A model generated the notes under the pieces. The model saw nothing but the letters and a program-made list of their open reading frames with translations. It made no database searches and was not told where the DNA came from. From the NCBI GenBank assembly GCA_028286605.1, contig JAQBRE010000002.1, positions 464,065 to 528,064 of the forward strand: a stretch of DNA of 64,000 nt, in the 5' to 3' direction. Made by a program: the position numbers and the translations under genes. Source of the DNA: Parcubacteria group bacterium. GTDB taxonomy: Bacteria; Patescibacteriota; Minisyncoccia; Phycocordibacterales; Phycocordibacteraceae. The stretch's first letter is position 1. Every line of letters begins with the position of its first letter. This document shows positions 182 to 54,702 of this stretch, one piece after another.

Positions 182-733
182 ATGAAGAAGCCCATTACTC
201 CTCCGACGCTTACTGAGCGATTCACCACGTGGATAGGTTCACGCAGCTCGCTCATTGCACATACGATATTCTTCATTGCTTGCTTCTTGCTGGTGGCGCT
301 TTCGCTGGTTACGCTGACGACGATGCTGCTCGTGCTCACCACAGCCGTTTCCCTCGAAGCGATCTATCTCGCCATTTTCATTCAGATGACGGTGAACAAG
401 AACACGGCCAGCCTTCGTGAGGTGGAGGAAGACATCGATGAGATTCAAGAGGATGTGGAGGAGCTCGGCGAAGACCTGGATGAGATTCAGGAGGATATCG
501 GAGAAATTCAGGAAGACGTTGAAGAGATGTCCGAGGATATTGATGAGATTCAAGAGGACGTTGAAGAAATGTCTGAAGATATTGAGGAGATGAGCGAGGA
601 AGAAAAAGAGGAGGTAGAGAAAGAGGTGAAGCGAAAGAAGAAGATTGCCAGCGAGGCTGAACTCCTCGACAAGCTTTCACAGGATGTCAGCCAGCTTTTG
701 AAAGACCTTGAGGCATTGAAGAAAGGAAAATAG
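182..733 (+). CDS. Membrane protein (2 predicted TM helices) with long acidic heptad-repeat tail (EDxDEIQ x9) and lysine-rich coiled-coil C-terminus; sits where atpI usually is, function unknown
   Basis: ORF track; hydrophobic segments LIAHTIFFIACFLLVALSLVTL / LLVLTTAVSLEAIYLAIFI; nine 21-bp in-frame tandem repeats encoding EDIDEIQ/EDVEEMS units; directly upstream of atpB on same strand. Confidence 0.5.
   Translation: MKKPITPPTLTERFTTWIGSRSSLIAHTIFFIACFLLVALSLVTLTTMLLVLTTAVSLEAIYLAIFIQMTVNKNTASLREVEEDIDEIQEDVEELGEDLDEIQEDIGEIQEDVEEMSEDIDEIQEDVEEMSEDIEEMSEEEKEEVEKEVKRKKKIASEAELLDKLSQDVSQLLKDLEALKKGK
421..609 (+). repeat. 9 x 21-bp imperfect tandem repeat inside the 182-733 CDS (encodes acidic heptads)
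   Basis: gaagacatcgatgagattcaa / gaggatgtggaggagctcggc / gaagacctggatgagattcag ... read directly. Confidence 0.8.
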
Positions 734-9828: not shown

Positions 9829-10923
9829 ATGAAGATCGGTATCGTCGGACTCCCGAACGTCGGGAAATCAACACTATTCAATGCGCTTACGAAGGCGAGT
9901 GTGCCCGCGGAGAATTATCCGTTCTGCACCATAGACCCCTCCGTGGGCGTCGTTGGTGTGCCGGACGAACGTCTGGATAAGCTCGCTCTCCTTTCAGGTT
10001 CCGATAAGACCATTCCGGCAGCTATTGAGTTCGTCGATATCGCCGGCCTCGTGCAAGGCGCTTCTATGGGTGAAGGTCTGGGCAATCAATTCCTTTCACA
10101 TATCCGTGAAGTTGATGCCATTCTGGAAATGGTTCGTTTCTTCGATGATACCGATATTATCCATGTACATGGGGAAGTTGATCCGGTCCGTGATATCGAG
10201 GTTATCAATCTTGAGCTTATCCTTGCGGACCAGCAGAGCGTTACCGGCCGTCGTGAGCGTCTCACCGGCGATGTTCGTGCACAGAAGAAAGAAGCGGTCG
10301 CAGAAGATGCGGTGCTTTCCAAGATAGAGCAGGTTCTTCTTAAGGGCGGCCTTGCAATAACGGTTGATCTTTCGCCTGAGGAAGCGAAACTCATCAAGCC
10401 GATGAATCTTCTTACGCTGAAGCCGATCCTGTATGCGCTTAACGGAAAGTCTGGCGGCCACAACCTTGATGAAGTTAATGATGGACGTTCTCGTGCCGCG
10501 TTCGAGCTGATCGAATCATATGGCGCAGACTATGTTCGCGTAGACGCAGTAACAGAAGGCGAACTGAACGATGTTGCAGAAGAAGACAAACAGATGTTCC
10601 GCTCAGAGCTCGGCGTGTCTGAAGACGGCCTAGAAGCACTCATCCGTGGCGCATACCGAACACTCGGTCTCATCACCTTCTTCACCACAGGACCGAAGGA
10701 ATCACGCGCGTGGACGGTTGCGAAAGGCGCAACAGCGCCCGAGGCGGGCGCTGCCATTCATACTGATTTCAAAGACAAGTTCATCCGCGCTGAAGTGGTC
10801 GGCTGGGACACGCTCCTCGCAGACGGCTCATGGAGCGCTGCACGCGATAAGGGCGACATTCGTACGGAAGGAAAAACCTACGTCACTAAAGATGGCGACG
10901 TGATGGTTTTCCTGCATAGCTAA
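9829..10923 (+). CDS. ychF: Ribosome-binding ATPase YchF (Obg-family GTPase)
   Basis: MKIGIVGLPNVGKSTLFNALT G1 motif, TGS C-terminal domain (GDIRTEGKTYVTKDGDVMVF). Confidence 0.95.
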   Translation: MKIGIVGLPNVGKSTLFNALTKASVPAENYPFCTIDPSVGVVGVPDERLDKLALLSGSDKTIPAAIEFVDIAGLVQGASMGEGLGNQFLSHIREVDAILEMVRFFDDTDIIHVHGEVDPVRDIEVINLELILADQQSVTGRRERLTGDVRAQKKEAVAEDAVLSKIEQVLLKGGLAITVDLSPEEAKLIKPMNLLTLKPILYALNGKSGGHNLDEVNDGRSRAAFELIESYGADYVRVDAVTEGELNDVAEEDKQMFRSELGVSEDGLEALIRGAYRTLGLITFFTTGPKESRAWTVAKGATAPEAGAAIHTDFKDKFIRAEVVGWDTLLADGSWSAARDKGDIRTEGKTYVTKDGDVMVFLHS

Positions 10924-10930
10924 TCCTCCG

Positions 10931-10961
10931 GTTTGATCCCTAGTCTGCCAGCTCTCAATTT
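10931..10961. repeat. Repeat family A copy 1 (GTTYGATCCCTAGTCTGCCAGC) plus CCAGCTCTCAATTT segment
   Basis: Near-identical copy at 51462-51483; CCAGCTCTCAATTT recurs at 11577-11591. Confidence 0.7.
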
Positions 10962-10973
10962 ATATAAAAGAAA

Positions 10974-10991
10974 CCGCTCCAAATGGAGCGG
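10974..10991. terminator. Hairpin terminator shared by convergent ychF and HNH genes
   Basis: ccgctcc-aaat-ggagcgg preceded by A/T-rich ttatataaaagaaa. Confidence 0.5.
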
Positions 10992-11004
10992 CCAAGTGCC
11001 TGTG

Positions 11005-11349
11005 TTATGAGCGAGCTACATTGCAAACTTTGCAGGCCATTACCATGTTTTCAGGATGATCTAAACCACCCTTGCTTTTAGGGATTACATGCTCAATAGT
11101 TGCTGGTGATGTATCCAGTTCATTCGTTCGTACTCCACAATAACAGCAACGCCAATTTTGAGCTTCGCATAAACATACGAAAAACTCCCTACCTAATTTA
11201 AACGCTCTCCAGAAAATTGTTCCATCATGCCTAAAACTGACATCTTCCAAAGCCCATAACAATTCGATATCGAAGCCTTTTTTATCAAGATCAGGACTAG
11301 TTCGTTGCAAAGCTGCACGAATTGCAACTTCTTGGCACGTTGTCTGCAT
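11005..11349 (-). CDS. HNH endonuclease (115 aa; start trimmed to MQTTCQ with GGAGG RBS)
   Basis: CCYCG...IEHVIPKSKGG...NMVMACKVCN zinc-finger/HNH signature; ~42% GC, lower than flanks. Confidence 0.8.
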   Translation of the reverse strand: MQTTCQEVAIRAALQRTSPDLDKKGFDIELLWALEDVSFRHDGTIFWRAFKLGREFFVCLCEAQNWRCCYCGVRTNELDTSPATIEHVIPKSKGGLDHPENMVMACKVCNVARS

Positions 11350-11385
11350 AGTCAATCCTCCTCTGGACAGAACCCTAACACAGTT

Positions 11386-11420
11386 GCATAAAGGTTCCAA
11401 TATCGTCCCAGACAGCCAGC
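11386..11420. repeat. Repeat family B copy 1 (GCAKAAAGGTTCCAAYATCGTCCCAGACAGCCAGC)
   Basis: 33/35 identity with 52179-52213; shares GCCAGC/CCAGAC core with family A. Confidence 0.7.
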
Positions 11421-11576
11421 TAGTAAAACAGAAAACCGCCCAACGGGAAGCTTTCCGTTGGGCGGCAGTATTGCGCTAGATGAGGTTGAAGTAGCGGGCG
11501 ATAAGGGTTTCGCCAAGAGCGATTAAGCCCGTAACACAGAGAACGGTCGCTTGAAACCGTTCCTCTCGCCGCCTTT

Positions 11577-11591
11577 CCCAGCTCTCAATTT
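11577..11591. repeat. Second copy of CCAGCTCTCAATTT (candidate target-site duplication with 10947-10961)
   Basis: Direct 14-15 bp match read in sequence. Confidence 0.5.
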
Positions 11592-20685: not shown

Positions 20686-21396
20686 TCAGGTCGGAACGAC
20701 CACCGGACGCCGAAGCTTCCGGAACATCGCACCGACGCCGCCGAAGCCGACGAGCATCAAAGCCCACATCGACGGTTCGGGAACCGCATGAACTTCGGTG
20801 ATTTGCGCAAAGACGTTGTCGATGGCGATGGCGTTGTGTTCCAGGCCGGTGGTGCCGAGGGGGTCGGTCTCACTGGTGGGCTTCACAGCCAGCCAAAGAT
20901 CGGTGAACGTGCCGCTGGTCGCCTCGATGTTGAGGGTCTCGAAGCTGTGGAACGGAACGCCGCCGAAGGTCTGGGCCGTAACGAAGGTCGTGCCGTTCAT
21001 CACCCGCAGAAGCAGATTGTCGCCCGGCGCGCTGAAGAAGCTGCCGAAGTCGAGGCTCAGCGCTTTGAAGGCGGTGCCGGGAGCCGAGTGGATGTCGATG
21101 TAGCCGAGGTGCTGCGAAGGCGCGAAGCTCGGGTTGGAACCCGCCAGCGTGCTGATGATGTCCTGCGTCGAAGAAAGGCTCTTGACGTCGAAAATCATGC
21201 CGTCATTGGTGTAGGTACTCACACCCGGAGCCGTGCCGGTGAAGCCCGTGAAATCCACGGAGTTCGTGGCGATAAAGCCCGGAGGAACGCCCACCGAAAC
21301 GATGACCGTCGTGGCGTTCGCCGGAGTCGAGAGCGCGAGAAGCGCACCCGCCAAAGCGAGGGCCGAAGCGGCCCCAAGCAGAGAAACGTGTCGCAT
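20686..21396 (-). CDS. PEP-CTERM-anchored secreted protein
   Basis: Signal peptide; C-terminal VPEPSMWALMLVGFGGVGAMFRKLRR; gene ~65% GC. Confidence 0.8.
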   Translation of the reverse strand: MRHVSLLGAASALALAGALLALSTPANATTVIVSVGVPPGFIATNSVDFTGFTGTAPGVSTYTNDGMIFDVKSLSSTQDIISTLAGSNPSFAPSQHLGYIDIHSAPGTAFKALSLDFGSFFSAPGDNLLLRVMNGTTFVTAQTFGGVPFHSFETLNIEATSGTFTDLWLAVKPTSETDPLGTTGLEHNAIAIDNVFAQITEVHAVPEPSMWALMLVGFGGVGAMFRKLRRPVVVPT

Positions 21397-21641: not shown

Positions 21642-22184
21642 ATGAATATCAAGCTTCTCGCGGGCGCCGCTCTGGCGCTCGGTCTGACCACTGCGGCCTT
21701 CGGGGCGCAGGCCTCGATCTACGACTTCAGCTGGATCGACACCGTCGGCGGCAACGATTCGGCCACCGGGCAATTCACCTTGAACAGCTCGTCTGTGATC
21801 ACCAACTTCACCGGCACGCAAATCGTGGGCACCAGCACCAGCGCAATCGGCGGCACCTCGAGCTTCGGCTCGGCGGATCAGCTCTTCTCGCCGACGGCGG
21901 CGGAGCCCTTCGACTTCAATGGCGCGTCCTACCACACGGCGACCCTCGGCGACTTCAATCTGGCCTTCGACCCGGGGAGCGGCTTGGGCCTCGTGCGCAT
22001 CAGCAGCACCGAAACCCCCGGCGGCACCGCCGACGGCGAACACTCGATCACGTTCTCGGCGACCAAGGTCGCGGGCGGCGTTCCGGAACCGGCGAGCTGG
22101 GCTCTGATGATCCTGGGCTTCGGCGGCGTCGGCGCCACCCTGCGCAACACGAAGCGGAAGACGGCCCTGGCCGCCACCGCCTAG
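21642..22184 (+). CDS. PEP-CTERM-anchored secreted protein
   Basis: Signal peptide; C-terminal VPEPASWALMILGFGGVGATLRNTKRK; GC-rich. Confidence 0.8.
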   Translation: MNIKLLAGAALALGLTTAAFGAQASIYDFSWIDTVGGNDSATGQFTLNSSSVITNFTGTQIVGTSTSAIGGTSSFGSADQLFSPTAAEPFDFNGASYHTATLGDFNLAFDPGSGLGLVRISSTETPGGTADGEHSITFSATKVAGGVPEPASWALMILGFGGVGATLRNTKRKTALAATA

Positions 22185-35140: not shown

Positions 35141-35485
35141 TTATTTGAAGTTGAACAGACGTAACTTGAAACGCCTCGGCTTCCAGTCGTAATGAGCGTC
35201 TGCCCATCTTCTAGCCAGAGTGAGCAGCAAGATTCCTCCCAAACCCATAAAACCGGGAATCCGTTGGCTCGTGGGTTCTATAAGCATCATGCCTAAGCAC
35301 AACACTAATGCAGCCGCCATGCTGCCTAAGAATAGCAACAAGAATTTGTAAGGCCTTCGTGCGAATGGCGGAGGCTTCGAAGCTGGCAATGATCCAGACT
35401 TCGTGGTCGCATCATCAAGATGAACGACCTTGTCGCCATGGGAGCGAAAAAACCTCCCACGCTTTCTTACTTCAAGATAGGACAT
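35141..35485 (-). CDS. Hypothetical membrane protein
   Basis: ORF track; 2 hydrophobic helices. Confidence 0.35.
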   Translation of the reverse strand: MSYLEVRKRGRFFRSHGDKVVHLDDATTKSGSLPASKPPPFARRPYKFLLLFLGSMAAALVLCLGMMLIEPTSQRIPGFMGLGGILLLTLARRWADAHYDWKPRRFKLRLFNFK

Positions 35486-35582
35486 CGTGAATCGCTCCAA
35501 GTGACAATGGTTCCTCTTGTATCTCAACAAAACCTTCGATTAAAGTCAACACGACCCAGCTCGTCTAAGCATACTGGAAGAG

Positions 35583-35660
35583 GTTAGAACCTGTTTTGTA
35601 TAAAAGAAAGCCGCCCGGAGGAACGCGGCAAGGATATTCCTCCGGGTTCGCTTCGGGCGG
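35583..35660 (-). repeat. Terminator-tail repeat family copy 2
   Basis: hairpin ccgcccgaagcgaacccggagg/cctccgggcggc then TTTCTTTTATACAAAACAGGTTCTAAC (minus strand). Confidence 0.6.
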
Positions 35661-36068
35661 TCATGATGCCGTTTCGGGTTCCTGCTTGGGCACAGCGTAC
35701 ATATTCCAGTCATCGTCGAAACGGATCGACAGGTCAGTCTTCTGTTCGGGATATGCCCTGTGTACTGACCACTTAAGCATCTCGAACAGTATCGGTCTCA
35801 TTACATGCAGTTCGAAATGGTCGAAATCCACATATGGATTGATGCCGAACGGCTCGCCGCTAATCACATGCATTCGGTCGTGGCTCAGCACGACCTGACT
35901 ATAGAGCAACGCGATAGCCCGCTGCTCTTTGGTCGCTTTGCCGATCAGGATCTCGTCCGGCCTTCTCTTGAGCAGGAGTTGCGGCGGTGCAGCGGAGTTT
36001 TTGTGCGACAGTAGCTCCGAGAGGCTTTCATAAAGTCTCGCAGTGATTGCCAGAATATCCTCTTCCAA
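35661..36068 (-). CDS. Hypothetical protein (135 aa)
   Basis: ORF track; own terminator. Confidence 0.45.
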   Translation of the reverse strand: MEEDILAITARLYESLSELLSHKNSAAPPQLLLKRRPDEILIGKATKEQRAIALLYSQVVLSHDRMHVISGEPFGINPYVDFDHFELHVMRPILFEMLKWSVHRAYPEQKTDLSIRFDDDWNMYAVPKQEPETAS

Positions 36069-36158
36069 AGATCTCTCCTTTGTCTAGCCGATAGGCTTAG
36101 TTACTTTATTGAATATTTAATATGAATTGTCAAGTATTTGCTCCACTGGCTGGAGGAT

Positions 36159-36233
36159 GTTCGAACCTGCTTTGTATAAAAAGAAGCCGCCCGAAGAGCG
36201 GGGAGATTGCTCTCCGGTCGGCTCTTCGAGCGG
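36159..36233 (-). repeat. Terminator-tail repeat family copy 3
   Basis: hairpin ccgctcgaagagccgaccggagagc...gctcttcgggcggc then TTCTTTTTATACAAAGCAGGTTCGAAC (minus strand). Confidence 0.6.
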
Positions 36234-36461
36234 TTAGTTGAAATCGTTGATGAACTTCTCCATCTCTTCTGGCTTGCTTAGATGTCCGCCCATCATGAGC
36301 TGCATACCAAGCATAATTGCCGGATGGTTTTCAGTCGAAGAGTCGCTCCTGAGATCAGTCACCATCGAAGCATAGGCTCCAGGTATGTCGCCCGACTTCA
36401 GGACATCGAGTGCACGTACCTTGCACCATTCAAGATGATTTTGTTCTGCCATTTCAAACAC
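36234..36461 (-). CDS. Small hypothetical protein (75 aa)
   Basis: ORF track; own terminator copy. Confidence 0.4.
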   Translation of the reverse strand: MFEMAEQNHLEWCKVRALDVLKSGDIPGAYASMVTDLRSDSSTENHPAIMLGMQLMMGGHLSKPEEMEKFINDFN

Positions 36462-36561
36462 TCCATTTTGCTAAGAACAATTCTCAATGAGACCACGACC
36501 GAAATTATGGGCTCAATAGAGGGGAAGATATAAACCGTCTTCCCAAGTCGGTAGGCATAAT

Positions 36562-36930
36562 CTAGTGAAGGGTATCCTCATAGCTACGTTCACGGCGGAT
36601 ACGACGTAGCGTTGCCAGTTGCGCCACACTTTCGGGTGGAAGCCACTTGCCTTCGCGCCGTTGCCGCCGGAGGTAGTGCAGCTGTTCGTCATGGCAGAAA
36701 CTGCCGACAACGTTCACATGCTCGTCTTTAGTCTCGATTGCCCAATAGCAGGACGGACACCGGTGGTATCCGTCGTCGATGAGCATCTGAGTGGCTGCAT
36801 ACGCCGCGTTGAGCTTAGCGAGTCTTATCTTTGGGCTTGCGCTGCCCCAGCAATTGCTGACGCGCAGCACGTGCTTGTGGAAGCCTAGCAGAAGCGCGAC
36901 GGCGAAGTAGGCACGATAAAGCTTGTGCAT
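36562..36930 (-). CDS. Hypothetical Cys/His-containing basic protein (possible zinc-binding)
   Basis: HRCPSC...FCHDEQLH cluster; arginine-rich C-terminus. Confidence 0.4.
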   Translation of the reverse strand: MHKLYRAYFAVALLLGFHKHVLRVSNCWGSASPKIRLAKLNAAYAATQMLIDDGYHRCPSCYWAIETKDEHVNVVGSFCHDEQLHYLRRQRREGKWLPPESVAQLATLRRIRRERSYEDTLH

Positions 36931-37011
36931 GACGCACCTTTCTAAAACGGCAAAGAGCCTGTTGATTCAGGCTCTATAATAAACATATTTATACTACATT
37001 GTCAACTCGAG

Positions 37012-37083
37012 CTCCGCGGGTAGGATTCGAACCTACGACCAAGTCGTTAACAGCGACCTGCTCTACCACTGAGCTACCGCGGA
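37012..37083 (-). tRNA. tRNA-Asn (anticodon GTT), CCA not encoded
   Basis: Minus strand TCCGCGGTAGCTCAGTGGTAGAGCAGGTCGCTGTTAACGACTTGGTCGTAGGTTCGAATCCTACCCGCGGAG folds into cloverleaf: 7-bp acceptor, D-arm GCTC/GAGC, anticodon loop CTGTTAA, T-loop TTCGAAT. Confidence 0.9.
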
Positions 37084-49064: not shown

Positions 49065-50435
49065 ATGGATTGGTCTTCGCTTCCGGGAATTAAAACGATC
49101 GAGAACATTCACGGCTATGCTGCGAGTCACGGACGCTTCGTCGACTGGAAACCGATCGCGTATACGTTCGCAGGCCTTAATATCATATTCCTTATCATCG
49201 CTCCGGTGCAGACGTTCCGTAACTACGAATTCTTGCTCTTCTTCGCACCGCTCTGGCTGCCGATAGTACTGGTACAAGCTGCAACGCTTCGCAAACTCCA
49301 GGCGAACCGCGAAGATTTCCTGCTTAAGCAGAAATACGTACTCCTTGAAATGCGTCTGCCGCGCGACACCATGAAGACGCCGCTCGCTATGGAAACGTTC
49401 TTCTCCAATATGCACTTCGGGCCGGGTGAATCGACCACGTACAAGATAAAGGCAGGTGCTATGCGCCCGTGGTGGTCCTTCGAGATAGCTTCAATTGAAG
49501 GACGTGTTCATTTCTTTATTTGGACACGTGAAATGCAGCGACGTGGTATCGAAAGCTATCTGTATTCGCAGTATCCGGACATGGAAATAATCGAAGCAGA
49601 AGACTACAGCCGTATCTTCGACCCATCGGATTTCAGCAAGAACAGCATGTTCGGCGAAGAATTCAAGAAAGTGCATGCGAACAAGGATGCAAAAGCAGAT
49701 CCGTATCCGATAAAGACATACGTAGACTACGGTCTCGATAAAGCGGGAACGAAACCGGAAGAGCAGATCGATCCGCTCGCGCAGGTTATCGAGCTCTTAG
49801 GATCAATCGGTCCGAAGGAACAGTTCTGGATACAATTCATTATTCGCCAGAGCAAGGCCGAAAAGCATGGCGAAGACTGGAAGAAGGTCGGCGCAGCCGA
49901 AGTGGAGAAAATTCGTGCAGCAACCGTGAAGAAAACCACGCGCGTAGACCCCGTAACCGGTAACACGATAGAGACGAGCGGCTTCCCGAACCCAACCAAG
50001 GGTCAGCAGGAAACGATCAACGCTATCGAGCGCAACACGAACAAAGCGGGCTTCGATGTCGGCATACGCATGATCTATTCCGCGCCGAAGGATGCGTACC
50101 AGGGTGGCATGATCGCGTTTTTCATGTCGCTCTTCAAGCCGTTCACGAATGAGAACGGCGCAGGTTTCGCGCCCGTTCAGCAATACTCCGCTGCGTTCAA
50201 CGACTATCCATGGGAAGACCCGAAAGGATACGCGCATCGCGCGGTCGAGAAGAAGGTCGTGGACCTCTATCGTCAGCGGGCGTATTTCAATCAGCCGTAC
50301 AACGGCCCGTGGTCAATCATGAGTACCGAAGAACTCGCGACGCTTTTCCATGTGCCTTCAAGTACCGTGCAGACGCCGGCACTTCCGCGCATGCAATCTT
50401 CAACAAGCGGCGCGCCGTCGAATCTCCCTATCTAG
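49065..50435 (+). CDS. Membrane protein (2 N-terminal TM) with large cytoplasmic domain, hypothetical
   Basis: ORF track; hydrophobic segments; stop immediately precedes mltG ATG. Confidence 0.5.
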   Translation: MDWSSLPGIKTIENIHGYAASHGRFVDWKPIAYTFAGLNIIFLIIAPVQTFRNYEFLLFFAPLWLPIVLVQAATLRKLQANREDFLLKQKYVLLEMRLPRDTMKTPLAMETFFSNMHFGPGESTTYKIKAGAMRPWWSFEIASIEGRVHFFIWTREMQRRGIESYLYSQYPDMEIIEAEDYSRIFDPSDFSKNSMFGEEFKKVHANKDAKADPYPIKTYVDYGLDKAGTKPEEQIDPLAQVIELLGSIGPKEQFWIQFIIRQSKAEKHGEDWKKVGAAEVEKIRAATVKKTTRVDPVTGNTIETSGFPNPTKGQQETINAIERNTNKAGFDVGIRMIYSAPKDAYQGGMIAFFMSLFKPFTNENGAGFAPVQQYSAAFNDYPWEDPKGYAHRAVEKKVVDLYRQRAYFNQPYNGPWSIMSTEELATLFHVPSSTVQTPALPRMQSSTSGAPSNLPI

Positions 50436-50436
50436 C

Positions 50437-51462
50437 ATGACTGTTCGCGAGCGAGCTCACTCGATGTTCGTGTCCGTGCGATTCTGGCTGACCGAACAGA
50501 AACTCCGCACAAGAGCACTGAAAGGAAAATGGCGTTATGTGGTCGCAGCAATCGTGCTCGTATTGCTCATTCCTATATACATCCTCTTCACGCCAGCGGT
50601 TGGTTTCCCGAAAGGACAGATCATTTCGATTCCTGCAGACAGCGCGAGCGATCAGATCGCGAGCCAGCTTGCTGCACAGCATGTGATACGAAGCGCGTTT
50701 CAGTTCAAAGTACTCGCACGCCTCACCGGACAGGATCGTCAGCTTGAATCCGGCATGTACGTATTCAAACAGTCACTCGGACTCGTGAGTGTTATGAATC
50801 GACTCGCCACCGGTAATCACGGCATCGCCGAAGCACGCGTTACGTTAACGGAAGGCATGACGGCGAAAGACATGGCACAGGTAATCGCAGCACAGCTTCC
50901 TGGCTTCGATACCACAGGATTCCTGAACGCCGCATCAACGAGCGAAGGGTATCTGTTCCCCGATACCTATTTCATTCTCCCTGGCACGACACCGGAAGAT
51001 ATCGTACAGCGTTTACACACTCAATTCGATGCGAAGGTTGCGACCATACAGCCACAGATCACTAAGTTCGGAAAACCGCTTCGCGATGATGTGATTATCG
51101 CCTCAATACTCGAGCGCGAAGTGAAAGGTACGAAAGATGAGCGTATTGTTGCAGGAATTCTTTATAATCGCCTCAATAAAGGCATGCCGTTGCAAGTTGA
51201 TGCTGCGTTCGGCTATGCGCATGACATAGATGGCTACACGCCGACTTCTGCAGATCTCACCGGAAACTCTCCGTACAACACGTATCGTTTCTCTGGCCTC
51301 CCGCCGACACCAATATCTAACCCCGGCTTGGATTCGCTTCTTGCTGCCGTTACTCCTACGAAAACTTCCTACATCTATTACATAACCGGCACCGATGGCA
51401 CGATGCATTACGCGACGACGTTCGCACAGCACGAAGCCAACATCGCAAAGTATTTAAAATAG
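50437..51462 (+). CDS. mltG: Endolytic murein transglycosylase MltG (YceG-like); start trimmed
   Basis: N-terminal TM; SILEREV...GILYNRL...GMPLQVDAAFGY YceG signature. Confidence 0.8.
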   Translation: MTVRERAHSMFVSVRFWLTEQKLRTRALKGKWRYVVAAIVLVLLIPIYILFTPAVGFPKGQIISIPADSASDQIASQLAAQHVIRSAFQFKVLARLTGQDRQLESGMYVFKQSLGLVSVMNRLATGNHGIAEARVTLTEGMTAKDMAQVIAAQLPGFDTTGFLNAASTSEGYLFPDTYFILPGTTPEDIVQRLHTQFDAKVATIQPQITKFGKPLRDDVIIASILEREVKGTKDERIVAGILYNRLNKGMPLQVDAAFGYAHDIDGYTPTSADLTGNSPYNTYRFSGLPPTPISNPGLDSLLAAVTPTKTSYIYYITGTDGTMHYATTFAQHEANIAKYLK

Positions 51463-51483
51463 TTCGATCCCTAGTCTGCCAGC
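51462..51483. repeat. Repeat family A copy 2
   Basis: GTTCGATCCCTAGTCTGCCAGC immediately after mltG stop; then TTTTTATAAAAGAAAA + hairpin gcgctgagttc-gagta-gaactcagcgc. Confidence 0.7.
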
Positions 51484-51537
51484 AATATTTTTATAAAAGA
51501 AAAGCGCTGAGTTCGAGTAGAACTCAGCGCCGTTTTC

Positions 51538-52071
51538 TTAGGTCAAGAACAACGCACGAACCTCAAAAGGAGAGACAAGACGGAGATAGGCATGCGCCGC
51601 CACCTTCACGCTCTCGCTTGAGGTATTGTCTCCAGCGCTGACGATAAAGCGCTTCAGCTTTTTCCCGTGCCGATGCTCCTCAACAGTGAAAGGTATAGTC
51701 GATCTGAATCGCATCGTTGCTTCGCGTTCTTTGAGGAACTCGGAAAAACGATTCGCGATTTCTTTACGGGCGGACTCTGCCCATTTCGTTGAATGGATGG
51801 CTTTCGCCAACTTTTCTTCGAGGACTTCATCAAAGGTTTCTGCCCACCCGCGCAATACGAGCCCGTACAATATTGCGTGCTGCTCGAAATAAAACGCACC
51901 GGTAGGTAATGACGTGATGATGCGTTCTCCTACTCTGGCGCCCAGAGCAGTATCTGCAGCAGTCAGTTCCCAGATACCGCCGAGGACGGCGGCAACCGCG
52001 GAGCCGTCTCTTCGCTGGTCAGCCGCAAGGACAAAATCAATTAGTCTCTTGTACTCAGTAATACCGGCCAT
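51538..52071 (-). CDS. Hypothetical protein (177 aa) inside A/B-flanked cassette 2
   Basis: ORF track. Confidence 0.45.
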   Translation of the reverse strand: MAGITEYKRLIDFVLAADQRRDGSAVAAVLGGIWELTAADTALGARVGERIITSLPTGAFYFEQHAILYGLVLRGWAETFDEVLEEKLAKAIHSTKWAESARKEIANRFSEFLKEREATMRFRSTIPFTVEEHRHGKKLKRFIVSAGDNTSSESVKVAAHAYLRLVSPFEVRALFLT

Positions 52072-52178
52072 GGCCGATTCCTTCCTGCACCGTGGTGCAA
52101 CTGGGTTGTGGTCCGTGGACCAAGAGGACCGTAGTCCAGAGAGACTATGTCATACGAATAGAGTGTTGTCATTACGCT

Positions 52179-52213
52179 GCAGAAAGGTTCCAACATCGTC
52201 CCAGACAGCCAGC
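52179..52213. repeat. Repeat family B copy 2
   Basis: GCAGAAAGGTTCCAACATCGTCCCAGACAGCCAGC; followed by hairpin gcccccacacgccggattgcggtgggggc. Confidence 0.7.
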
Positions 52214-52261
52214 AACGAAAAGCCCCCACACGCCGGATTGCGGTGGGGGCATAAAAATAAT

Positions 52262-52675
52262 CTAAAACTCGACAGCTGCCGCGAGACGATATGGCTCGAG
52301 ACGTTCCTTGAGGGCAGGGAACTGTTCAAGAATCCCGTTTAGAAAGATAGGAAGCATTTGGTGCATGGCCAAGACATTCTTGAGATTTGGTTGCACACTA
52401 TATCCCAATGAAGCTCCACACTGACCTGCATAGATTAGGTTTCCGTGTGGAGTCCAGCAGTGCAGAACATATAGATACTCCTGTGAGTAGACGCCAGTTA
52501 TACGCCATCTGCCAGTGGAATCAGTACCAATATCCAACGCGTCTTTAGTGCTACCGTGAAGAAATTCTTCTGCCGTAAGGCTGCTCATACACAGCCGAAT
52601 GGTCGTATCTATATCCTTCTTCATACGGTCGATATTTTCTTGTCCTCGAACAAGGTCTGAAACTGAAAGGTTCAT
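52262..52675 (-). CDS. Hypothetical protein (137 aa)
   Basis: ORF track. Confidence 0.4.
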   Translation of the reverse strand: MNLSVSDLVRGQENIDRMKKDIDTTIRLCMSSLTAEEFLHGSTKDALDIGTDSTGRWRITGVYSQEYLYVLHCWTPHGNLIYAGQCGASLGYSVQPNLKNVLAMHQMLPIFLNGILEQFPALKERLEPYRLAAAVEF

Positions 52676-52818
52676 AGAACGTTCCTATTCACTAGGACCC
52701 TCACGGGTGTTAATAGGCATCACTGCCTTGGGTTCTACCCGAAACCACTTTGATACTATTTACATAATGTGTCAAATACAACGGTTCAAACAGCCAGCAA
52801 AAGAGCGCAACATGCGGT

Positions 52819-53871
52819 ATGGTAGCGATAATGGAATCGGTAAAAGGAAAGAAAGTATTCGTGGGGCTTTCTGGCGGCGTAGATTCGGCGGTTTCGGCTG
52901 CGTTATTGCAACACGCAGGCGCTGAGCTGACCGGCGTATTCATAAAAGGATGGTATCCGCCCGGCATGCCGTGTACCTGGGCGCAGGATCGCCGTGATGC
53001 GATGCGCGTTGCTGCGCATCTAGGTATTCCATTTCATACACTCGATGCATCTAGCGAATACAAGAAAGGAGTAATTGATTACCTGCTCAGCGAATATGCT
53101 GCAGGACGGACGCCGAATCCGGACATCATGTGCAACCGGGAAGTGAAGTTCGGCGCGTTCTATCAGTTCGCGAAAGCGCACGGCGCAGATTTCATTGCGA
53201 CGGGGCATTATGCACGCACTGAGAGTGGACGACTGCTGCGAGGTATTGATGAGGGAAAGGACCAGAGTTATTTCCTGTGGGCGATTCCGGAGGAATCGCT
53301 TACACATACGCTGTTCCCGGTTGGCGACATGCCGAAGAGCGAAGTACGTACGCTTGCAGAGAAGTTCAAGCTTCCCGTTGCAGACAAGCGCGATAGCCAG
53401 GGAATCTGTTTCCTTGGTTCGATTTCTGTTGGTGAGTTCCTGCGACAAGAACTCGGTACCACGCCTGGCAAAGCAATAGATGAAAGCGGGAAGGATATCG
53501 GCATGCACGACGGCGCCGTACTGCACACGCTTGGCGCGCGCATCAGCTTGCAGGATGCAGATGCTGGCCCTTGGTATGTGATTAGGAAAGATTTAGATAC
53601 GAACGTGCTTACGGTACGCAAGGGAAACGTCGAGCTCGCTGCACCGGCTGGCTCGCTCACGCTTCGTGAAGTGAATTGGTTCGAGCCTGCACTATTAGAA
53701 GGTGCGGTTGAAGCGCAATACCGTTATCACGGGCCGCGCATCGCGGGCCGCTATAACACGCACGCAAAATCCTTCACTCCGGACGATGCATTCCGTGAAC
53801 CTGTCGCGGCAGGGCAGTCGCTCGTGCTGTATTTCGGCGATACCTGTATCGGAGGTGGTATCATCGAGTAA
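52819..53871 (+). CDS. mnmA: tRNA-specific 2-thiouridylase
   Basis: PP-loop VFVGLSGGVDSAV; conserved Cys residues; C-terminal beta-barrel. Confidence 0.9.
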   Translation: MVAIMESVKGKKVFVGLSGGVDSAVSAALLQHAGAELTGVFIKGWYPPGMPCTWAQDRRDAMRVAAHLGIPFHTLDASSEYKKGVIDYLLSEYAAGRTPNPDIMCNREVKFGAFYQFAKAHGADFIATGHYARTESGRLLRGIDEGKDQSYFLWAIPEESLTHTLFPVGDMPKSEVRTLAEKFKLPVADKRDSQGICFLGSISVGEFLRQELGTTPGKAIDESGKDIGMHDGAVLHTLGARISLQDADAGPWYVIRKDLDTNVLTVRKGNVELAAPAGSLTLREVNWFEPALLEGAVEAQYRYHGPRIAGRYNTHAKSFTPDDAFREPVAAGQSLVLYFGDTCIGGGIIE

Positions 53872-54702
53872 ATGGCTGAAATAGTTAAAGCAGACGGAAC
53901 GATAGAGACATTCCTTCCGGAGAAACTCGAGGATTCGCTGCGTCGTGCAGGCGCAGGTGCCGGTGCTGCAGAAAAGATCCGTCGTACCATCGAAGCGAGC
54001 ATCGCGCCGGGTTCAGAGAGCAATGACATCTATAGGCGCGCGTTCCAGATGCTTCGCACGGAAGGGCGGGCCGCAGCGGCACGCTACAGCCTGCGTCGCG
54101 CACTTTTCGAATTCGGTCCATCTGGCCACCCGTTCGAAGACTTCGTTGGCGAGCTTTTCAAGAAAGAGGGCTGGAATATCGAGACGCGACGACTCATCCC
54201 TGGAAAGTGCGTCACGCATGAGGTGGATGTGTATGCGACGCGTGGAAAAGAAACGCTTGCTGCGGAACTCAAATATCATAATGATCCAGGATACAAGACC
54301 GACGTGAAGATCGCACTCTATGTAAAAGCGCGCTTCGACGACATCTGGCAGTGCGATCCGAACGTGCAGGGAACCTGCCCGATAGATCGCGGATACCTTA
54401 TCACCAACACGAAGTTCACGTCGCAGGCTATCGAATACGCTACCTGTTCCGGCATGAATCTTCTTGGCTGGAGCTATCCGCATCACGGAAACCTGTATGA
54501 CCGCATCATCGCGAGCGCACTGTATCCGATAACCGCACTCACTACGCTGCGCAAAGCAGAGAAGCGCCTCCTTATCGATCGCAACATCTCCACCACGGAC
54601 CTCCTTCGCCAGCATCGTGAATTGCTCCGCGAGATCGGCGTATCGCCTGAACGCGTCGGCGCTATCGTCGCAGAAATTGAGACCTTGAACGATACGCGAT
54701 AG
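53872..54702 (+). CDS. ATP-cone domain fused to Mrr-like (PD-(D/E)XK) restriction-endonuclease domain
   Basis: N-terminal ATP-cone-like MAEIVKADGTIETFLPEKLEDSLRRAG...AEKIRRTIEASI; nuclease core FEDFVGELF...HEVDVYA...AELKY (D...E-x-K); ATG abuts mnmA TAA. Confidence 0.7.
   Translation: MAEIVKADGTIETFLPEKLEDSLRRAGAGAGAAEKIRRTIEASIAPGSESNDIYRRAFQMLRTEGRAAAARYSLRRALFEFGPSGHPFEDFVGELFKKEGWNIETRRLIPGKCVTHEVDVYATRGKETLAAELKYHNDPGYKTDVKIALYVKARFDDIWQCDPNVQGTCPIDRGYLITNTKFTSQAIEYATCSGMNLLGWSYPHHGNLYDRIIASALYPITALTTLRKAEKRLLIDRNISTTDLLRQHRELLREIGVSPERVGAIVAEIETLNDTR

What the first reader, a model, noticed from the sequence alone, without database searches (positions are those of the whole stretch)
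51462..52213. Second A/B-flanked cassette 40 kb away carries a different cargo gene
Near-identical copies of repeat A (51462-51483, GTTCGATCCCTAGTCTGCCAGC) and repeat B (52179-52213, 33/35 identity with copy 1) flank a single minus-strand hypothetical gene (51538-52071). The orientation and order match the HNH cassette: in both, rc-B sits upstream of the cargo and rc-A downstream beyond a hairpin terminator. Repeat A immediately abuts the stop codon of the upstream housekeeping gene in both cases (ychF; mltG). Two independent loci with the same bounded architecture but different cargo suggest a cassette-type mobile system or an integron-like gene-capture system. No integrase is visible in this window.
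Basis: seen in the sequence. Interest (0 to 1): 0.65.

Follow-up and report, generated by a model that had tools for sequence, protein, structure and literature searches.

The report
Serine-recombinase gene-cassette arrays at tRNA-mimic sites
The two repeats are the docking site (a copy of the 3' end of tRNA-Gln) and the cassette-borne site of a widespread, apparently undescribed gene-cassette array system in ultra-small (CPR) bacteria. It looks like an integron but appears to be run by a large serine recombinase.

Summary
A (10930-10952, 51461-51483) and B (11390-11420, 52183-52213) are the only strong copies in the 64 kb.

The finding's locus continues past B with a second cassette (ORF 52262-52675) and a decayed site B' (52783-52800).

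In 127 related CPR loci I counted 41 A and 295 B:
- all copies in a locus share one orientation, and A is always first;
- median spacing is 547 nt, usually with one small ORF per interval;
- 233 cargo ORFs fall into 215 clusters.

A is tRNA-Gln positions 52-74. In some genomes it is the real tRNA end; elsewhere, as here, it is a bare fragment at a housekeeping gene's stop codon.

B shares A's outer GGTTC and inner CWGCCAGC but is exactly 5 nt longer. That is the published attP-versus-attB half-site offset of large serine recombinases (LSRs). The same 23/28-nt rule holds for tRNA-Lys, tRNA-Ser and tRNA-Asn targets.

A 486-aa LSR plus Rep element lies between A (or tRNA-Gln) and the first B in five loci. 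One of them is in the same mltG-mnmA gap as in this window.

Two related strains differ by one cassette, with the junction inside B.

Best reading: SCC-like, integron-like cassette arrays mobilised in trans. No recombinase lies in this window, and mobility is inferred, not shown.

The parts
50350..51462 (+). Host gene mltG/yceG. Its TAG stop codon overlaps the first base of site A2.
   Evidence: Pfam YceG, E 3.5e-73. Syntenic with L007 and L100.
51461..51483 (+). Site A2, AGTTCGATCCCTAGTCTGCCAGC. It is the docking site, a copy of tRNA-Gln positions 52-74. Interpreted as an attB-type arm.
   Evidence: 45 bits. The same 23-mer is the 3' end of real tRNA-Gln genes in L043, L056, L131, L151, L163 and L170.
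51503..51531 (.). Bidirectional hairpin terminator shared by mltG and the first cargo gene.
   Evidence: 11-12 bp stem with a T-run on both strands.
51538..52071 (-). Cargo ORF of cassette 1, 177 aa, function unknown.
   Evidence: Searches give no significant family. No homologue in 127 related loci.
52144..52172 (-). Promoter-like match (ATGACA, 17-nt spacer, TG-CATAGT) for the 177-aa ORF. It lies outside B.
   Evidence: This is a consensus match only.
52183..52213 (+). Site B2, AAAGGTTCCAACATCGTCCCAGACAGCCAGC. It is the cassette-borne site, interpreted as an attP-type arm.
   Evidence: 58 bits. It fits the consensus of 295 copies.
52262..52675 (-). Cargo ORF of cassette 2, 137 aa, function unknown. 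It is preceded on the plus strand by a hairpin and T-run at about 52222-52250.
   Evidence: The hairpin was read by eye.
52783..52800 (+). Site B', GGTTCAAACAGCCAGCAA. It is the terminal site, internally deleted, and keeps the outer GGTTC and inner ACAGCCAGC.
   Evidence: family D9; 15.6 bits for the 3' part, third best in the window.
52819..53871 (+). Host gene mnmA, the right border of the array. It is followed by an ATP-cone/Mrr-like gene.
   Evidence: Arrays lie upstream of mnmA also in L047, L153 and L100.
9829..10923 (+). Host gene ychF, the left border of the sister array.
   Evidence: The ychF-then-A arrangement is also in L161, L072 and L104.
10930..10952 (+). Site A1, GGTTTGATCCCTAGTCTGCCAGC.
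   Evidence: 29 bits.
11005..11352 (-). Cargo ORF of 115 aa with an HNH nuclease domain. Its terminator is at 10972-10993.
   Evidence: Pfam HNH, E 2e-9. Terminator.
11390..11420 (+). Site B1, AAAGGTTCCAATATCGTCCCAGACAGCCAGC.
   Evidence: 54 bits.
11435..11591 (+). Remnant cassette. It holds a minus-strand terminator (11435-11466) but no credible ORF, then a decayed terminal site ending ...TTTCCCAGC. Its junction CCAGCTCTCAATTT (11578-11591) exactly repeats the A1 junction at 10948-10961.
   Evidence: 14-nt exact repeat; 0 of 100 shuffles gave two copies.
37011..37083 (-). Real tRNA-Asn. Its last 23 nt, GGTTCGAATCCTACCCGCGGAGC, head a probable third array on the minus strand.
36140..36167 (-). 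28-nt site resembling an attP-type arm, GGTTCGAACATCCTCCAGCCAGTGGAGC. It follows ORFs 36562-36930 and 36234-36461.
   Evidence: (D6).
35564..35591 (-). Degenerate second site of the tRNA-Asn array, GGTTCTAACCTCTTCCAG.... It lies between ORF 35661-36068 and ORF 35141-35530.
   Evidence: (D6). The ORFs have no family hits.

Best explanation
A and B are the two kinds of attachment-site arm of a family of large serine recombinases (LSRs) in CPR bacteria that target tRNA 3' ends.

The sites:
- A is the chromosomal, attB-type arm. It equals tRNA-Gln positions 52-74: T-loop GGTTCGA, T-stem, acceptor strand, discriminator and C74.
- B is the mobile, attP-type arm. It has the same outer GGTTC motif and the same inner acceptor-strand block CWGCCAGC, but 5 bp more between them.

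How the array works (inferred):
- Strand exchange takes place in the last few bases of the motif, at or just before C74.
- Each cassette is a short leader (often with its own -10 box), one ORF, and B.
- A circle carrying B recombines with A, so the newest cassette lands next to A and older ones are pushed distally.
- Some cassettes are autonomous: 4-8 kb, with the LSR, a RepSA/G2P-like Rep protein and an HTH protein. Most are single-gene passengers that depend on an LSR supplied in trans. This is how staphylococcal SCC tandem cassettes behave.

In this window there are two such arrays, at bare A fragments after ychF and after mltG. There is probably a third, at the real tRNA-Asn.

Shown here: the architecture, the tRNA identity of A, the 5-nt offset, LSR adjacency in other genomes, the conserved platform with variable cargo, and a cassette indel at B.

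Inferred, not shown: that the LSR acts on these sites, that passenger cassettes move in trans, and the exact crossover position.
For: Architecture:
- 41 A and 295 B in 127 loci. All copies in a locus share one orientation, and A is never downstream of a B. Median spacing is 547 nt.
- 130 of 211 intervals hold exactly one ORF. Plus-strand ORFs start about 26 nt after the preceding site and stop a median 7 nt before B.
- 233 cargo ORFs fall into 215 clusters and 82 Pfam families.

Identity of A:
- A is the 3' end of real tRNA-Gln genes in L043, L056, L131, L151, L163 and L170.

Recombinase association:
- An LSR of 486-503 aa (Resolvase + Recombinase + Zn_ribbon_recom) lies directly next to A or the tRNA end, with a B at the far end of a 4-8 kb element. 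This holds in L081, L100, L163, L169 and L170. In L081, L163 and L169 further B cassettes lie behind it.
- In L100 the element fills the same mltG-mnmA gap as array 2 of the window.
- Homologous LSRs sit at tRNA-Lys (L164) and tRNA-Ser (L172). Their far-end sites keep B's outer part, and the inner part switches to that tRNA's acceptor strand.

The 5-nt offset:
- The chromosomal arm is 23 nt and the mobile arm 28 nt in all four tRNA classes: Gln, Lys, Ser and Asn.
- This matches the 5-bp shift of the zinc-ribbon-domain motif between attB and attP half-sites (PMC3783163).

Cassette boundaries:
- The same Nudix cassette follows A in L006 and follows a B in L080. Homology ends exactly at the end of the next B.
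- Strains L126 and L132 share the host gene, A and the distal cassettes. They differ in the A-proximal cassettes and by one internal cassette whose junction lies inside B.

Tolerance of the right arm:
- LSR elements have integrated at A sites whose right arm was an ordinary cassette leader. So a variable right arm is tolerated.

Precedent:
- Ccr recombinases mobilise recombinase-less tandem cassettes (PMC11470126).
Against: - No serine recombinase is encoded in the 64-kb window (tblastn; profile HMM at E<=10).
- Only 4 of the 127 motif-selected loci show the LSR.
- The right arms of A and B sites in the arrays are not conserved, whereas canonical LSRs read both arms.
- Passenger cassettes lack the conserved arm (ATAATTTCTAAAnnGGCATyTTT) that LSR-bearing elements carry next to A.
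- The internal cassette loss in L126/L132 would need a B x B exchange, which canonical LSRs do not perform.
- An LSR reaction cannot deliver the A arm, so bare A fragments at protein-gene stop codons are unexplained.
- The 14-nt junction repeat around array 1 is not expected from a 2-bp crossover.
- No circular cassette contigs were found.
- Nothing was tested biochemically.
Confidence: 0.68

Rival explanations
1. Graveyard model. The arrays are fossils of many successive integrations of full-length LSR elements at A. Each element was later deleted down to the gene next to its attR. Single-gene units have never moved on their own.
For: - LSR elements integrate at the head of existing arrays.
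- L043 has an A followed by only the first 10 nt of the LSR-side arm, with a B 98 nt later. That looks like a nearly complete deletion of an element.
- The terminal sites in both window arrays are decayed.
- Passenger cassettes lack the LSR-side arm.
Against: - No LSR or Rep fragments were found inside the arrays (tblastn at E<1e-3 hits only 4 heads).
- The units are very uniform: a leader of about 26 nt, one ORF, and a stop codon a median 7 nt before B.
- The same cassette occurs at different ranks in different arrays.
- The one-cassette indel has its junction inside B.
- Repeated deletions ending exactly at the crossover are improbable.
Confidence: 0.2
2. A different, unlinked recombinase (for example a Xer-like tyrosine recombinase or an unknown enzyme) moves the cassettes. 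The LSR elements merely share the tRNA-Gln end as a target.
For: - Most arrays have no LSR nearby.
- The right arms are unconserved.
- The 14-nt junction identity in array 1 is more typical of tyrosine integrases at tRNA genes.
Against: - B's outer part is also the far-end arm of LSR elements at tRNA-Lys and tRNA-Ser.
- The 5-nt offset is specific to LSR half-sites.
- The sites have no dyad symmetry and no fold.
- No other recombinase recurs among 868 flanking genes.
Confidence: 0.08
3. A and B are RNA-level or regulatory modules of vertically inherited genes, such as terminator, processing or leader elements.
For: - The sites lie right after stop codons.
- A resembles a tRNA minihelix.
- Terminator hairpins are nearby.
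Against: - Site orientation is fixed by the array, not by the gene. 81 of 233 cargo ORFs are antisense to the sites, as are all three at the A/B arrays in this window.
- There is no Rfam match and no fold.
- The cargo is hyperdiverse and not syntenic.
- The 28-mer is nearly identical in MAGs whose record titles name different CPR groups.
Confidence: 0.02
4. It is a classical integron or a CALIN (a cluster of attC sites lacking an integrase).
For: One-ORF cassettes, each followed by a site in one orientation, with a distinct head site.
Against: - B does not fold and has no R''/L''-L'/R' symmetry. Its folding energy is no better than that of shuffled sequence.
- No tyrosine recombinase is adjacent.
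- Many cassettes carry their own promoter.
Confidence: 0.01

Closest known systems
Staphylococcal cassette chromosome (SCC/SCCmec) composite islands with Ccr large serine recombinases
   Same: - The docking site is at the 3' end of a conserved housekeeping gene.
- Cassettes sit in tandem, delimited by directly repeated att sites.
- Only some cassettes encode the serine recombinase, and the others are moved in trans (PMC11470126).
- A variable sequence is tolerated on the distal side of the site.
   Different: - The target here is a tRNA 3' end or a bare copy of it, not rlmH.
- Cassettes are mostly single genes of about 0.5 kb rather than 5-60 kb.
- One genome holds several arrays (three in 64 kb here).
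- The host is CPR bacteria.
- There is one LSR gene plus a Rep gene rather than ccrAB/ccrC.
- Relatedness of this LSR to Ccr was not tested.
Integrons (IntI, attI, attC cassette arrays)
   Same: - A head site followed by an array of one-ORF cassettes, each with a 3' recombination site in one orientation.
- Hyperdiverse accessory cargo such as GNAT, Nudix, cupin and toxin-like proteins.
- The newest cassettes appear nearest the head, and distal ones are shared between strains.
   Different: - There is no tyrosine integrase at the head.
- The sites are 23 and 28 nt, unstructured and conserved in sequence, rather than folded attC hairpins.
- Many cassettes carry their own -10 box placed for leaderless transcripts.
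- About one third of cargo genes are inverted.
Serine-integrase attB/attP architecture (A118/LI integrase model, Rutherford et al. 2013)
   Same: The distal 9-bp motif (here WAGGTTCSA) lies 5 bp further from the crossover in the mobile (P) arm than in the chromosomal (B) arm. The inner block is common to both.
   Different: - Only the left arm is conserved in the arrays.
- The B-arm motif is the universal tRNA T-loop.
- The central dinucleotide has not been determined.
tRNA-targeting integrative elements and islands (for example tycheposons, pSAM2-type elements with RepSA)
   Same: - Integration is at a tRNA 3' end.
- Successive insertions build tandem islands.
- A RepSA-like replication protein lies next to the integrase.
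   Different: - The far-end repeat is not a simple partial tRNA copy but a distinct P-type arm.
- The units are single genes.
- Docking sites also exist as tRNA fragments detached from any tRNA gene.

Membership tests
Integron | A tyrosine integrase (IntI) is encoded next to the head site (attI). | tested here: not met
   The genes next to A are ychF, mltG and other housekeeping genes. No recurrent recombinase other than the LSR appears among 868 flanking genes.
Integron | attC sites are imperfect palindromes that fold as single strands. | tested here: not met
   B and A, with 15-nt flanks and on both strands, give a minimum free energy of 0 to -2.8 kcal/mol. This is no better than shuffles, with z-scores of +0.7 to +1.4.
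Integron | An array of mostly one-ORF cassettes, each ending in a recombination site, all in one orientation. | tested here: met
Integron | Promoterless cassettes expressed from a common promoter, Pc. | tested here: not met
   23 of 82 leaders contain TATA[AC]T, against 4.4 +/- 2.1 in shuffles. In 18 of them the box ends 6-7 nt before the start codon. One third of ORFs are inverted. This is sequence evidence only.
Large serine recombinase att sites | A recombinase with Resolvase, Recombinase and zinc-ribbon domains is encoded next to the att site. | tested here: met
   Met in related loci L081, L100, L163, L169 and L170 (Gln/A), L164 (Lys) and L172 (Ser). Not met inside the window itself.
Large serine recombinase att sites | The attP-type arm carries the distal motif 5 bp further out than the attB-type arm. 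| tested here: met
   23 nt against 28 nt from GGTTC to the end of the identity block, for Gln, Lys, Ser and Asn. The rule comes from PMC3783163.
Large serine recombinase att sites | Both arms of each site are recognisable (imperfect dyad). | tested here: inconclusive
   LSR elements keep a conserved arm next to A. The right arms in cassette arrays show only a weak AA or AT-rich signal.
Large serine recombinase att sites | An identical, non-palindromic central dinucleotide and demonstrated strand exchange. | not testable with these tools
   The attL/attR identity ends right after C74. Candidate dinucleotides lie in the last 5 nt. Biochemistry is needed.
SCC-type cassette chromosome | Tandem cassettes bounded by direct att repeats at the 3' end of a conserved gene, with the recombinase in only some cassettes. 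| tested here: met
SCC-type cassette chromosome | A Ccr-family recombinase acting at rlmH. | tested here: not met
   The targets are tRNA-Gln/Lys/Ser/Asn ends or A fragments after ychF, mltG and other genes. Orthology to Ccr was not examined.
SCC-type cassette chromosome | Excision and circularisation of recombinase-less cassettes in trans. | not testable with these tools
   The evidence is only indirect: the cassette indel at B and the same cassette at different ranks. No circular contigs were found.

The most novel reading that the evidence does not exclude
CPR bacteria possess a serine-recombinase counterpart of the integron.
- Short tRNA-mimic docking sites are planted at the stop codons of housekeeping genes, several per genome.
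- They capture self-expressed, single-gene cassettes.
- Recognition is of one half-site only (attB-type A against attP-type B).
- The same reaction therefore both inserts and excises cassettes without a directionality factor.
- The enzyme is supplied by a small Rep-plus-LSR 'master' cassette.
Probability: 0.35. Interest if true: 0.9.

Novelty: new variant of a known kind. Interest (0 to 1): 0.8.

Why it matters
CPR (Patescibacteria) genomes are tiny, and little is described about how they gain genes. Here is a compact, widespread platform for gene capture:
- The platform occurs in MAGs whose record titles name Parcubacteria, Paceibacterota and Saccharibacteria.
- There are probably three arrays in this one 64-kb window.
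- It turns over hundreds of unrelated small genes.

If the mechanism holds, it would be a second, independently evolved integron-like system, built on a serine rather than a tyrosine recombinase.

It would also give a natural, four-fold replicated illustration of the attB/attP 5-bp rule. In it the universal tRNA T-loop serves as the distal recognition motif and the acceptor stem sets target specificity. That is directly relevant to retargeting serine integrases for genome engineering.

Finally, it gives a simple sequence handle, the 28-mer, for mining the accessory gene pool of uncultured CPR bacteria.

Tried and rejected
- Exact-protein look-ups of the window's cargo found nothing on record.
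- Rfam gave nothing for the region.
- A has no hit in viral contigs.
- The B core hits 33 viral contigs, but all lie inside one C5 DNA-methyltransferase gene of high-GC prophages with no LSR nearby. I treat this as probably coincidental.
- The LSR has no relatives in viral contigs.
- The idea that A or B is a promoter was rejected. The spacing to -10 boxes is variable, and the only promoter-like match lies outside B.
- The attC-like folding idea was rejected.
- A first fuzzy-regex census timed out and was replaced by Hamming and PWM scans.
- The group L043/L131/L145/L151 shares an identical tRNA-Gln. Its flanks are only 66-72% identical, so it is not a strain-level comparison.
- No terminally redundant (circular) contigs exist among the loci.
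- Six literature searches found no description of such arrays in CPR bacteria and one useful precedent, SCC tandem cassettes.
- The genome contigs and metagenome-contig scans were each used once, so a whole-genome test of array and LSR co-occurrence could not be run.
Full report
**1. The observation**

The 22-mer of repeat A occurs twice in the window, at 51462-51483 (exact) and 10931-10952 (one mismatch). None of 100 shuffles gave a match. Repeat B at 52179-52213 and 11386-11420 is 33/35 identical, and the similarity runs for 44 nt.

- YceG/MltG ends at 51462 and YchF at 10923.
- A 177-aa ORF (51538-52071) and a 115-aa HNH ORF (11005-11352) lie on the minus strand.
- Each is followed by a hairpin terminator next to A.

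I later built a weight matrix from hundreds of copies in other genomes. It finds only these two B sites (58 and 54 bits; next best -4) and these two A sites (45 and 29 bits). The next best A-like hit is the T-arm of the window's own tRNA-Asn. So the repeats are real, rare and specific.

**2. The locus is longer than described**

After B2 comes a second minus-strand ORF (52262-52675, 137 aa). Then comes a third site, B' (GGTTCAAACAGCCAGC, 52783-52800), that keeps both ends of B but lacks the middle. Then comes mnmA.

At the sister locus, B1 is followed by a terminator without a credible ORF. After that is a decayed site whose junction, CCAGCTCTCAATTT (11578-11591), exactly repeats the junction at A1 (10948-10961).

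A and B are themselves related. They share GGTTC at the 5' end and CWGCCAGC at the 3' end.

**3. Census outside the window**

An exact 18-mer of A hits seven loci in five CPR MAGs. By record title these are Parcubacteria C7867-007 (three contigs), two Paceibacterota and two Saccharibacteria. An eighth hit, in an Eggerthellaceae genome, is a chance match. In every CPR locus A is followed on the same strand by one to three B copies.

Over 127 loci I counted 41 A and 295 B:
- all copies within a locus have the same orientation;
- A is never downstream of a B;
- median spacing is 547 nt;
- arrays reach ten B sites in 10 kb.

The intervals look like cassettes:
- 130 of 211 hold exactly one ORF (median 137 aa);
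- two thirds of the ORFs read in the same direction as the sites;
- those start about 26 nt after the previous site and stop a median 7 nt (mode 1) before B.

The 233 cargo ORFs fall into 215 clusters. Pfam finds 82 families among 150 of them, including Nudix, AAA_33/zeta-toxin-like kinases, HAD, GNAT, SET, serine hydrolase, cupin and M14 peptidase. The window's own cargo has no homologue in any of these loci and no family assignment beyond the HNH domain.

**4. What A is**

A is the 3' end of tRNA-Gln. In L043, L056, L131, L151, L163 and L170 the 23-mer is the last 23 nt (positions 52-74) of a tRNA-Gln gene called by ARAGORN. In L046, L050, L081 and L091 it is a second partial copy just after a tRNA-Gln.

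In most loci, and in this window, only the fragment is present. It sits at the end of a protein gene, and in 11 of 41 cases the TAG of the T-stem serves as that gene's stop codon.

The same host positions recur in genomes that are only 45-81% identical at the protein level:
- ychF, A, cassette, B, then DUF5671 in L161, L072 and L104;
- arrays between mltG and mnmA in L007, L047, L153 and L100.

The platform is therefore old and conserved while the cargo is not.

**5. Cassette boundaries**

A Nudix cassette lies directly after A in L006 and after the sixth B in L080. Homology (74% nt) runs from the shared inner part of the upstream site, through the leader and ORF, to exactly the last base of the downstream B. 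Then it stops.

L126 and L132 are related strains (92-95% nt identity). They share the host gene, A and the distal cassettes. Their A-proximal cassettes differ, and L126 has one extra internal cassette of 877 nt.

At that point the single B of L132 carries the left flank and the GGTTCC of L126's B4398. It carries the right flank of L126's B5275, which itself reads GGCTCC.

So:
- exchange happens inside B;
- B travels with the ORF upstream of it;
- turnover is concentrated at the A end.

**6. The associated recombinase**

In L081, A is followed immediately by a 486-aa protein with Resolvase, Recombinase and Zn_ribbon_recom domains, then by a RepSA/G2P-like Rep. A degenerate B and five more B cassettes follow 6.3 kb later. 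Homologues head the arrays in L100, L097 and L136.

The family is large, with more than 2,600 database proteins at E<1e-20. The few that carry a source name are CPR.

Seven contexts fetched through the protein gave these results:
- the LSR's 3' end abuts tRNA-Gln in L163 and L170;
- it abuts a bare A fragment in L169;
- it abuts tRNA-Lys in L164;
- it abuts tRNA-Ser in L172;
- L167 and L171 are unclear.

L163 and L169 have six further B cassettes behind the element. In L100 the element fills the very mltG-mnmA gap that holds array 2 in the window.

The far-end sites of the Lys and Ser elements keep B's outer part (GGTTCCAAC.TC.TCCCA). Their inner 10-12 nt are replaced by that tRNA's acceptor strand. 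This separates a recombinase-recognition part from a target-identity part.

No serine recombinase is encoded in the window (tblastn; profile HMM).

**7. The 5-nt rule**

From GGTTC to the end of the identity block, the chromosomal arm is 23 nt and the mobile arm 28 nt. This holds in all four classes:
- Gln;
- Lys;
- Ser;
- Asn, the last of these inside this window.

Rutherford et al. showed that the 9-bp zinc-ribbon-domain motif of a serine integrase lies at positions 16-24 of an attP half-site and 11-19 of an attB half-site, a shift of 5 bp (PMC3783163).

The A/B pair fits this. The common distal motif is WAGGTTCSA, which in A is the universal tRNA T-loop. The inner block is shared, and the offset is 5 bp.

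The attL/attR identity ends right after C74. This places the crossover in the last few bases of the motif. I could not fix the dinucleotide.

**8. Model**

A is the docking (attB-type) arm and B the cassette (attP-type) arm of this LSR family.
- Circles carrying a B recombine with A, so new cassettes enter next to A.
- The LSR-plus-Rep unit is itself one such cassette, an autonomous one.
- LSR elements have integrated at A sites whose right arm was an ordinary cassette leader. The enzyme therefore tolerates variable right arms, which makes B-plus-leader circles plausible substrates.

The closest precedent is the staphylococcal SCC system. There, Ccr serine recombinases excise and circularise neighbouring recombinase-less cassettes bounded by att sites (PMC11470126).

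Many cassettes look self-expressed. 23 of 82 leaders hold TATA[AC]T, against 4.4 +/- 2.1 in shuffles. In 18 of them the box ends 6-7 nt before the start codon, the geometry of leaderless transcripts.

**9. Rivals**

- *Graveyard of decayed LSR elements.* This cannot be excluded. L043 shows what looks like a deletion scar. But the model does not explain the uniform one-gene units, the absence of LSR or Rep debris in the arrays, or the cassette-precise indel.
- *A different recombinase.* This is unlikely, given the Lys and Ser sites and the 5-nt rule.
- *An RNA or regulatory module.* This is contradicted by orientation. One third of cargo ORFs, and all three cargo ORFs of the two A/B arrays in this window, are antisense to the sites. 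There is also no fold and no Rfam match.
- *A true integron.* This fails on attC structure, integrase type and promoter logic.

**10. What remains unexplained**

- How bare A fragments reached the stop codons of ychF, mltG and other genes. An LSR reaction does not deliver the B-type arm.
- The 14-nt junction repeat that brackets array 1.
- The lack of a conserved right arm in passenger cassettes.
- The B x B exchange implied by the L126/L132 difference. It could instead be homologous recombination across 28-31 bp.
- A 24-26-nt match of B inside a prophage C5-methyltransferase gene.

**11. Novelty**

Six full-text searches found no description of such arrays in CPR bacteria. The parts are known kinds: a large serine recombinase, tRNA-end targeting and tandem cassettes. 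The combination appears to be new:
- single-gene, self-promoted cassettes;
- tRNA-mimic docking sites detached from tRNA genes;
- several arrays per small genome;
- wide spread in CPR.

I therefore rate it a new variant of a known kind, of high interest. The caveat is that enzyme-site pairing and cassette mobility are inferred from comparative sequence evidence only.

Noticed in passing
window 35141-37083 (minus strand): This is a probable third cassette array, headed by the real tRNA-Asn (37083..37011).
- Two 28-nt sites resembling attP-type arms lie at 36167..36140 and 35591..35564, the second degenerate.
- They separate ORFs of 122+75, 135 and 129 aa that have no family hits.
- The tRNA's last 23 nt and the 28-nt site show the same 5-nt offset as A and B.
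   Followed up: partly
window 10948-10961 and 11578-11591: An exact 14-nt direct repeat, CCAGCTCTCAATTT, brackets the whole insert of the ychF array. The identity extends 9 nt to the right of the motif. A 2-bp serine-recombinase crossover would not produce this.
   Followed up: partly
L009-L041 (33 IMG/VR contigs): The B core plus flanks (AAGGTTCCAACATCGTCCCAGACAGC, 24-26 nt) occurs inside a conserved C5 DNA-methyltransferase gene of high-GC prophages. On the opposite strand it codes for ..VWDDVGTF.., about 20 aa before the GYPCQPFS motif. The match is often near a contig end. No LSR lies nearby, so it is probably a coincidence multiplied by a gene family.
   Followed up: partly
82 cassette leaders in L001-L162: A -10-like box, TATA[AC]T, is enriched five-fold over shuffles. 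In 18 of 23 cases it ends 6-7 nt before the start codon. This suggests cassette-borne promoters that give leaderless mRNAs.
   Followed up: partly
L043 7822-8046: There are two A copies 99 nt apart, with identical 30-nt left flanks. The second is followed by ATAATTTCTA, the start of the arm that normally adjoins the LSR gene, but there is no LSR. A B follows only 98 nt later. It looks like the scar of a lost LSR element.
   Followed up: no
L164-L166, L167-L169, L171, L172, L081: In most contexts the LSR is preceded by a RepSA/G2P-like replication protein, and in several also by a small HTH protein. They lie in 4-8 kb elements, an integrative-plasmid-like module. L167/L168 and L171 carry a second, different LSR a few kb away.
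   Followed up: partly
window 20729-20784 and 22080-22135: A 56-nt inverted repeat (84% complementary, 1295 nt apart). By eye one arm reads as VPEPASWALMILGFGGVG, a PEP-CTERM-like tail, so it may be the ends of two convergent genes.
   Followed up: no
window 419-619: A run of 21-nt periodic repeats rich in GAG/GAT codons, probably an acidic repeat protein.
   Followed up: no
window 53872-54702: The gene after mnmA combines an ATP-cone with an Mrr-like restriction-endonuclease fold. The mnmA-plus-this-gene pair is conserved next to arrays in L004, L047, L153 and L100.
   Followed up: no
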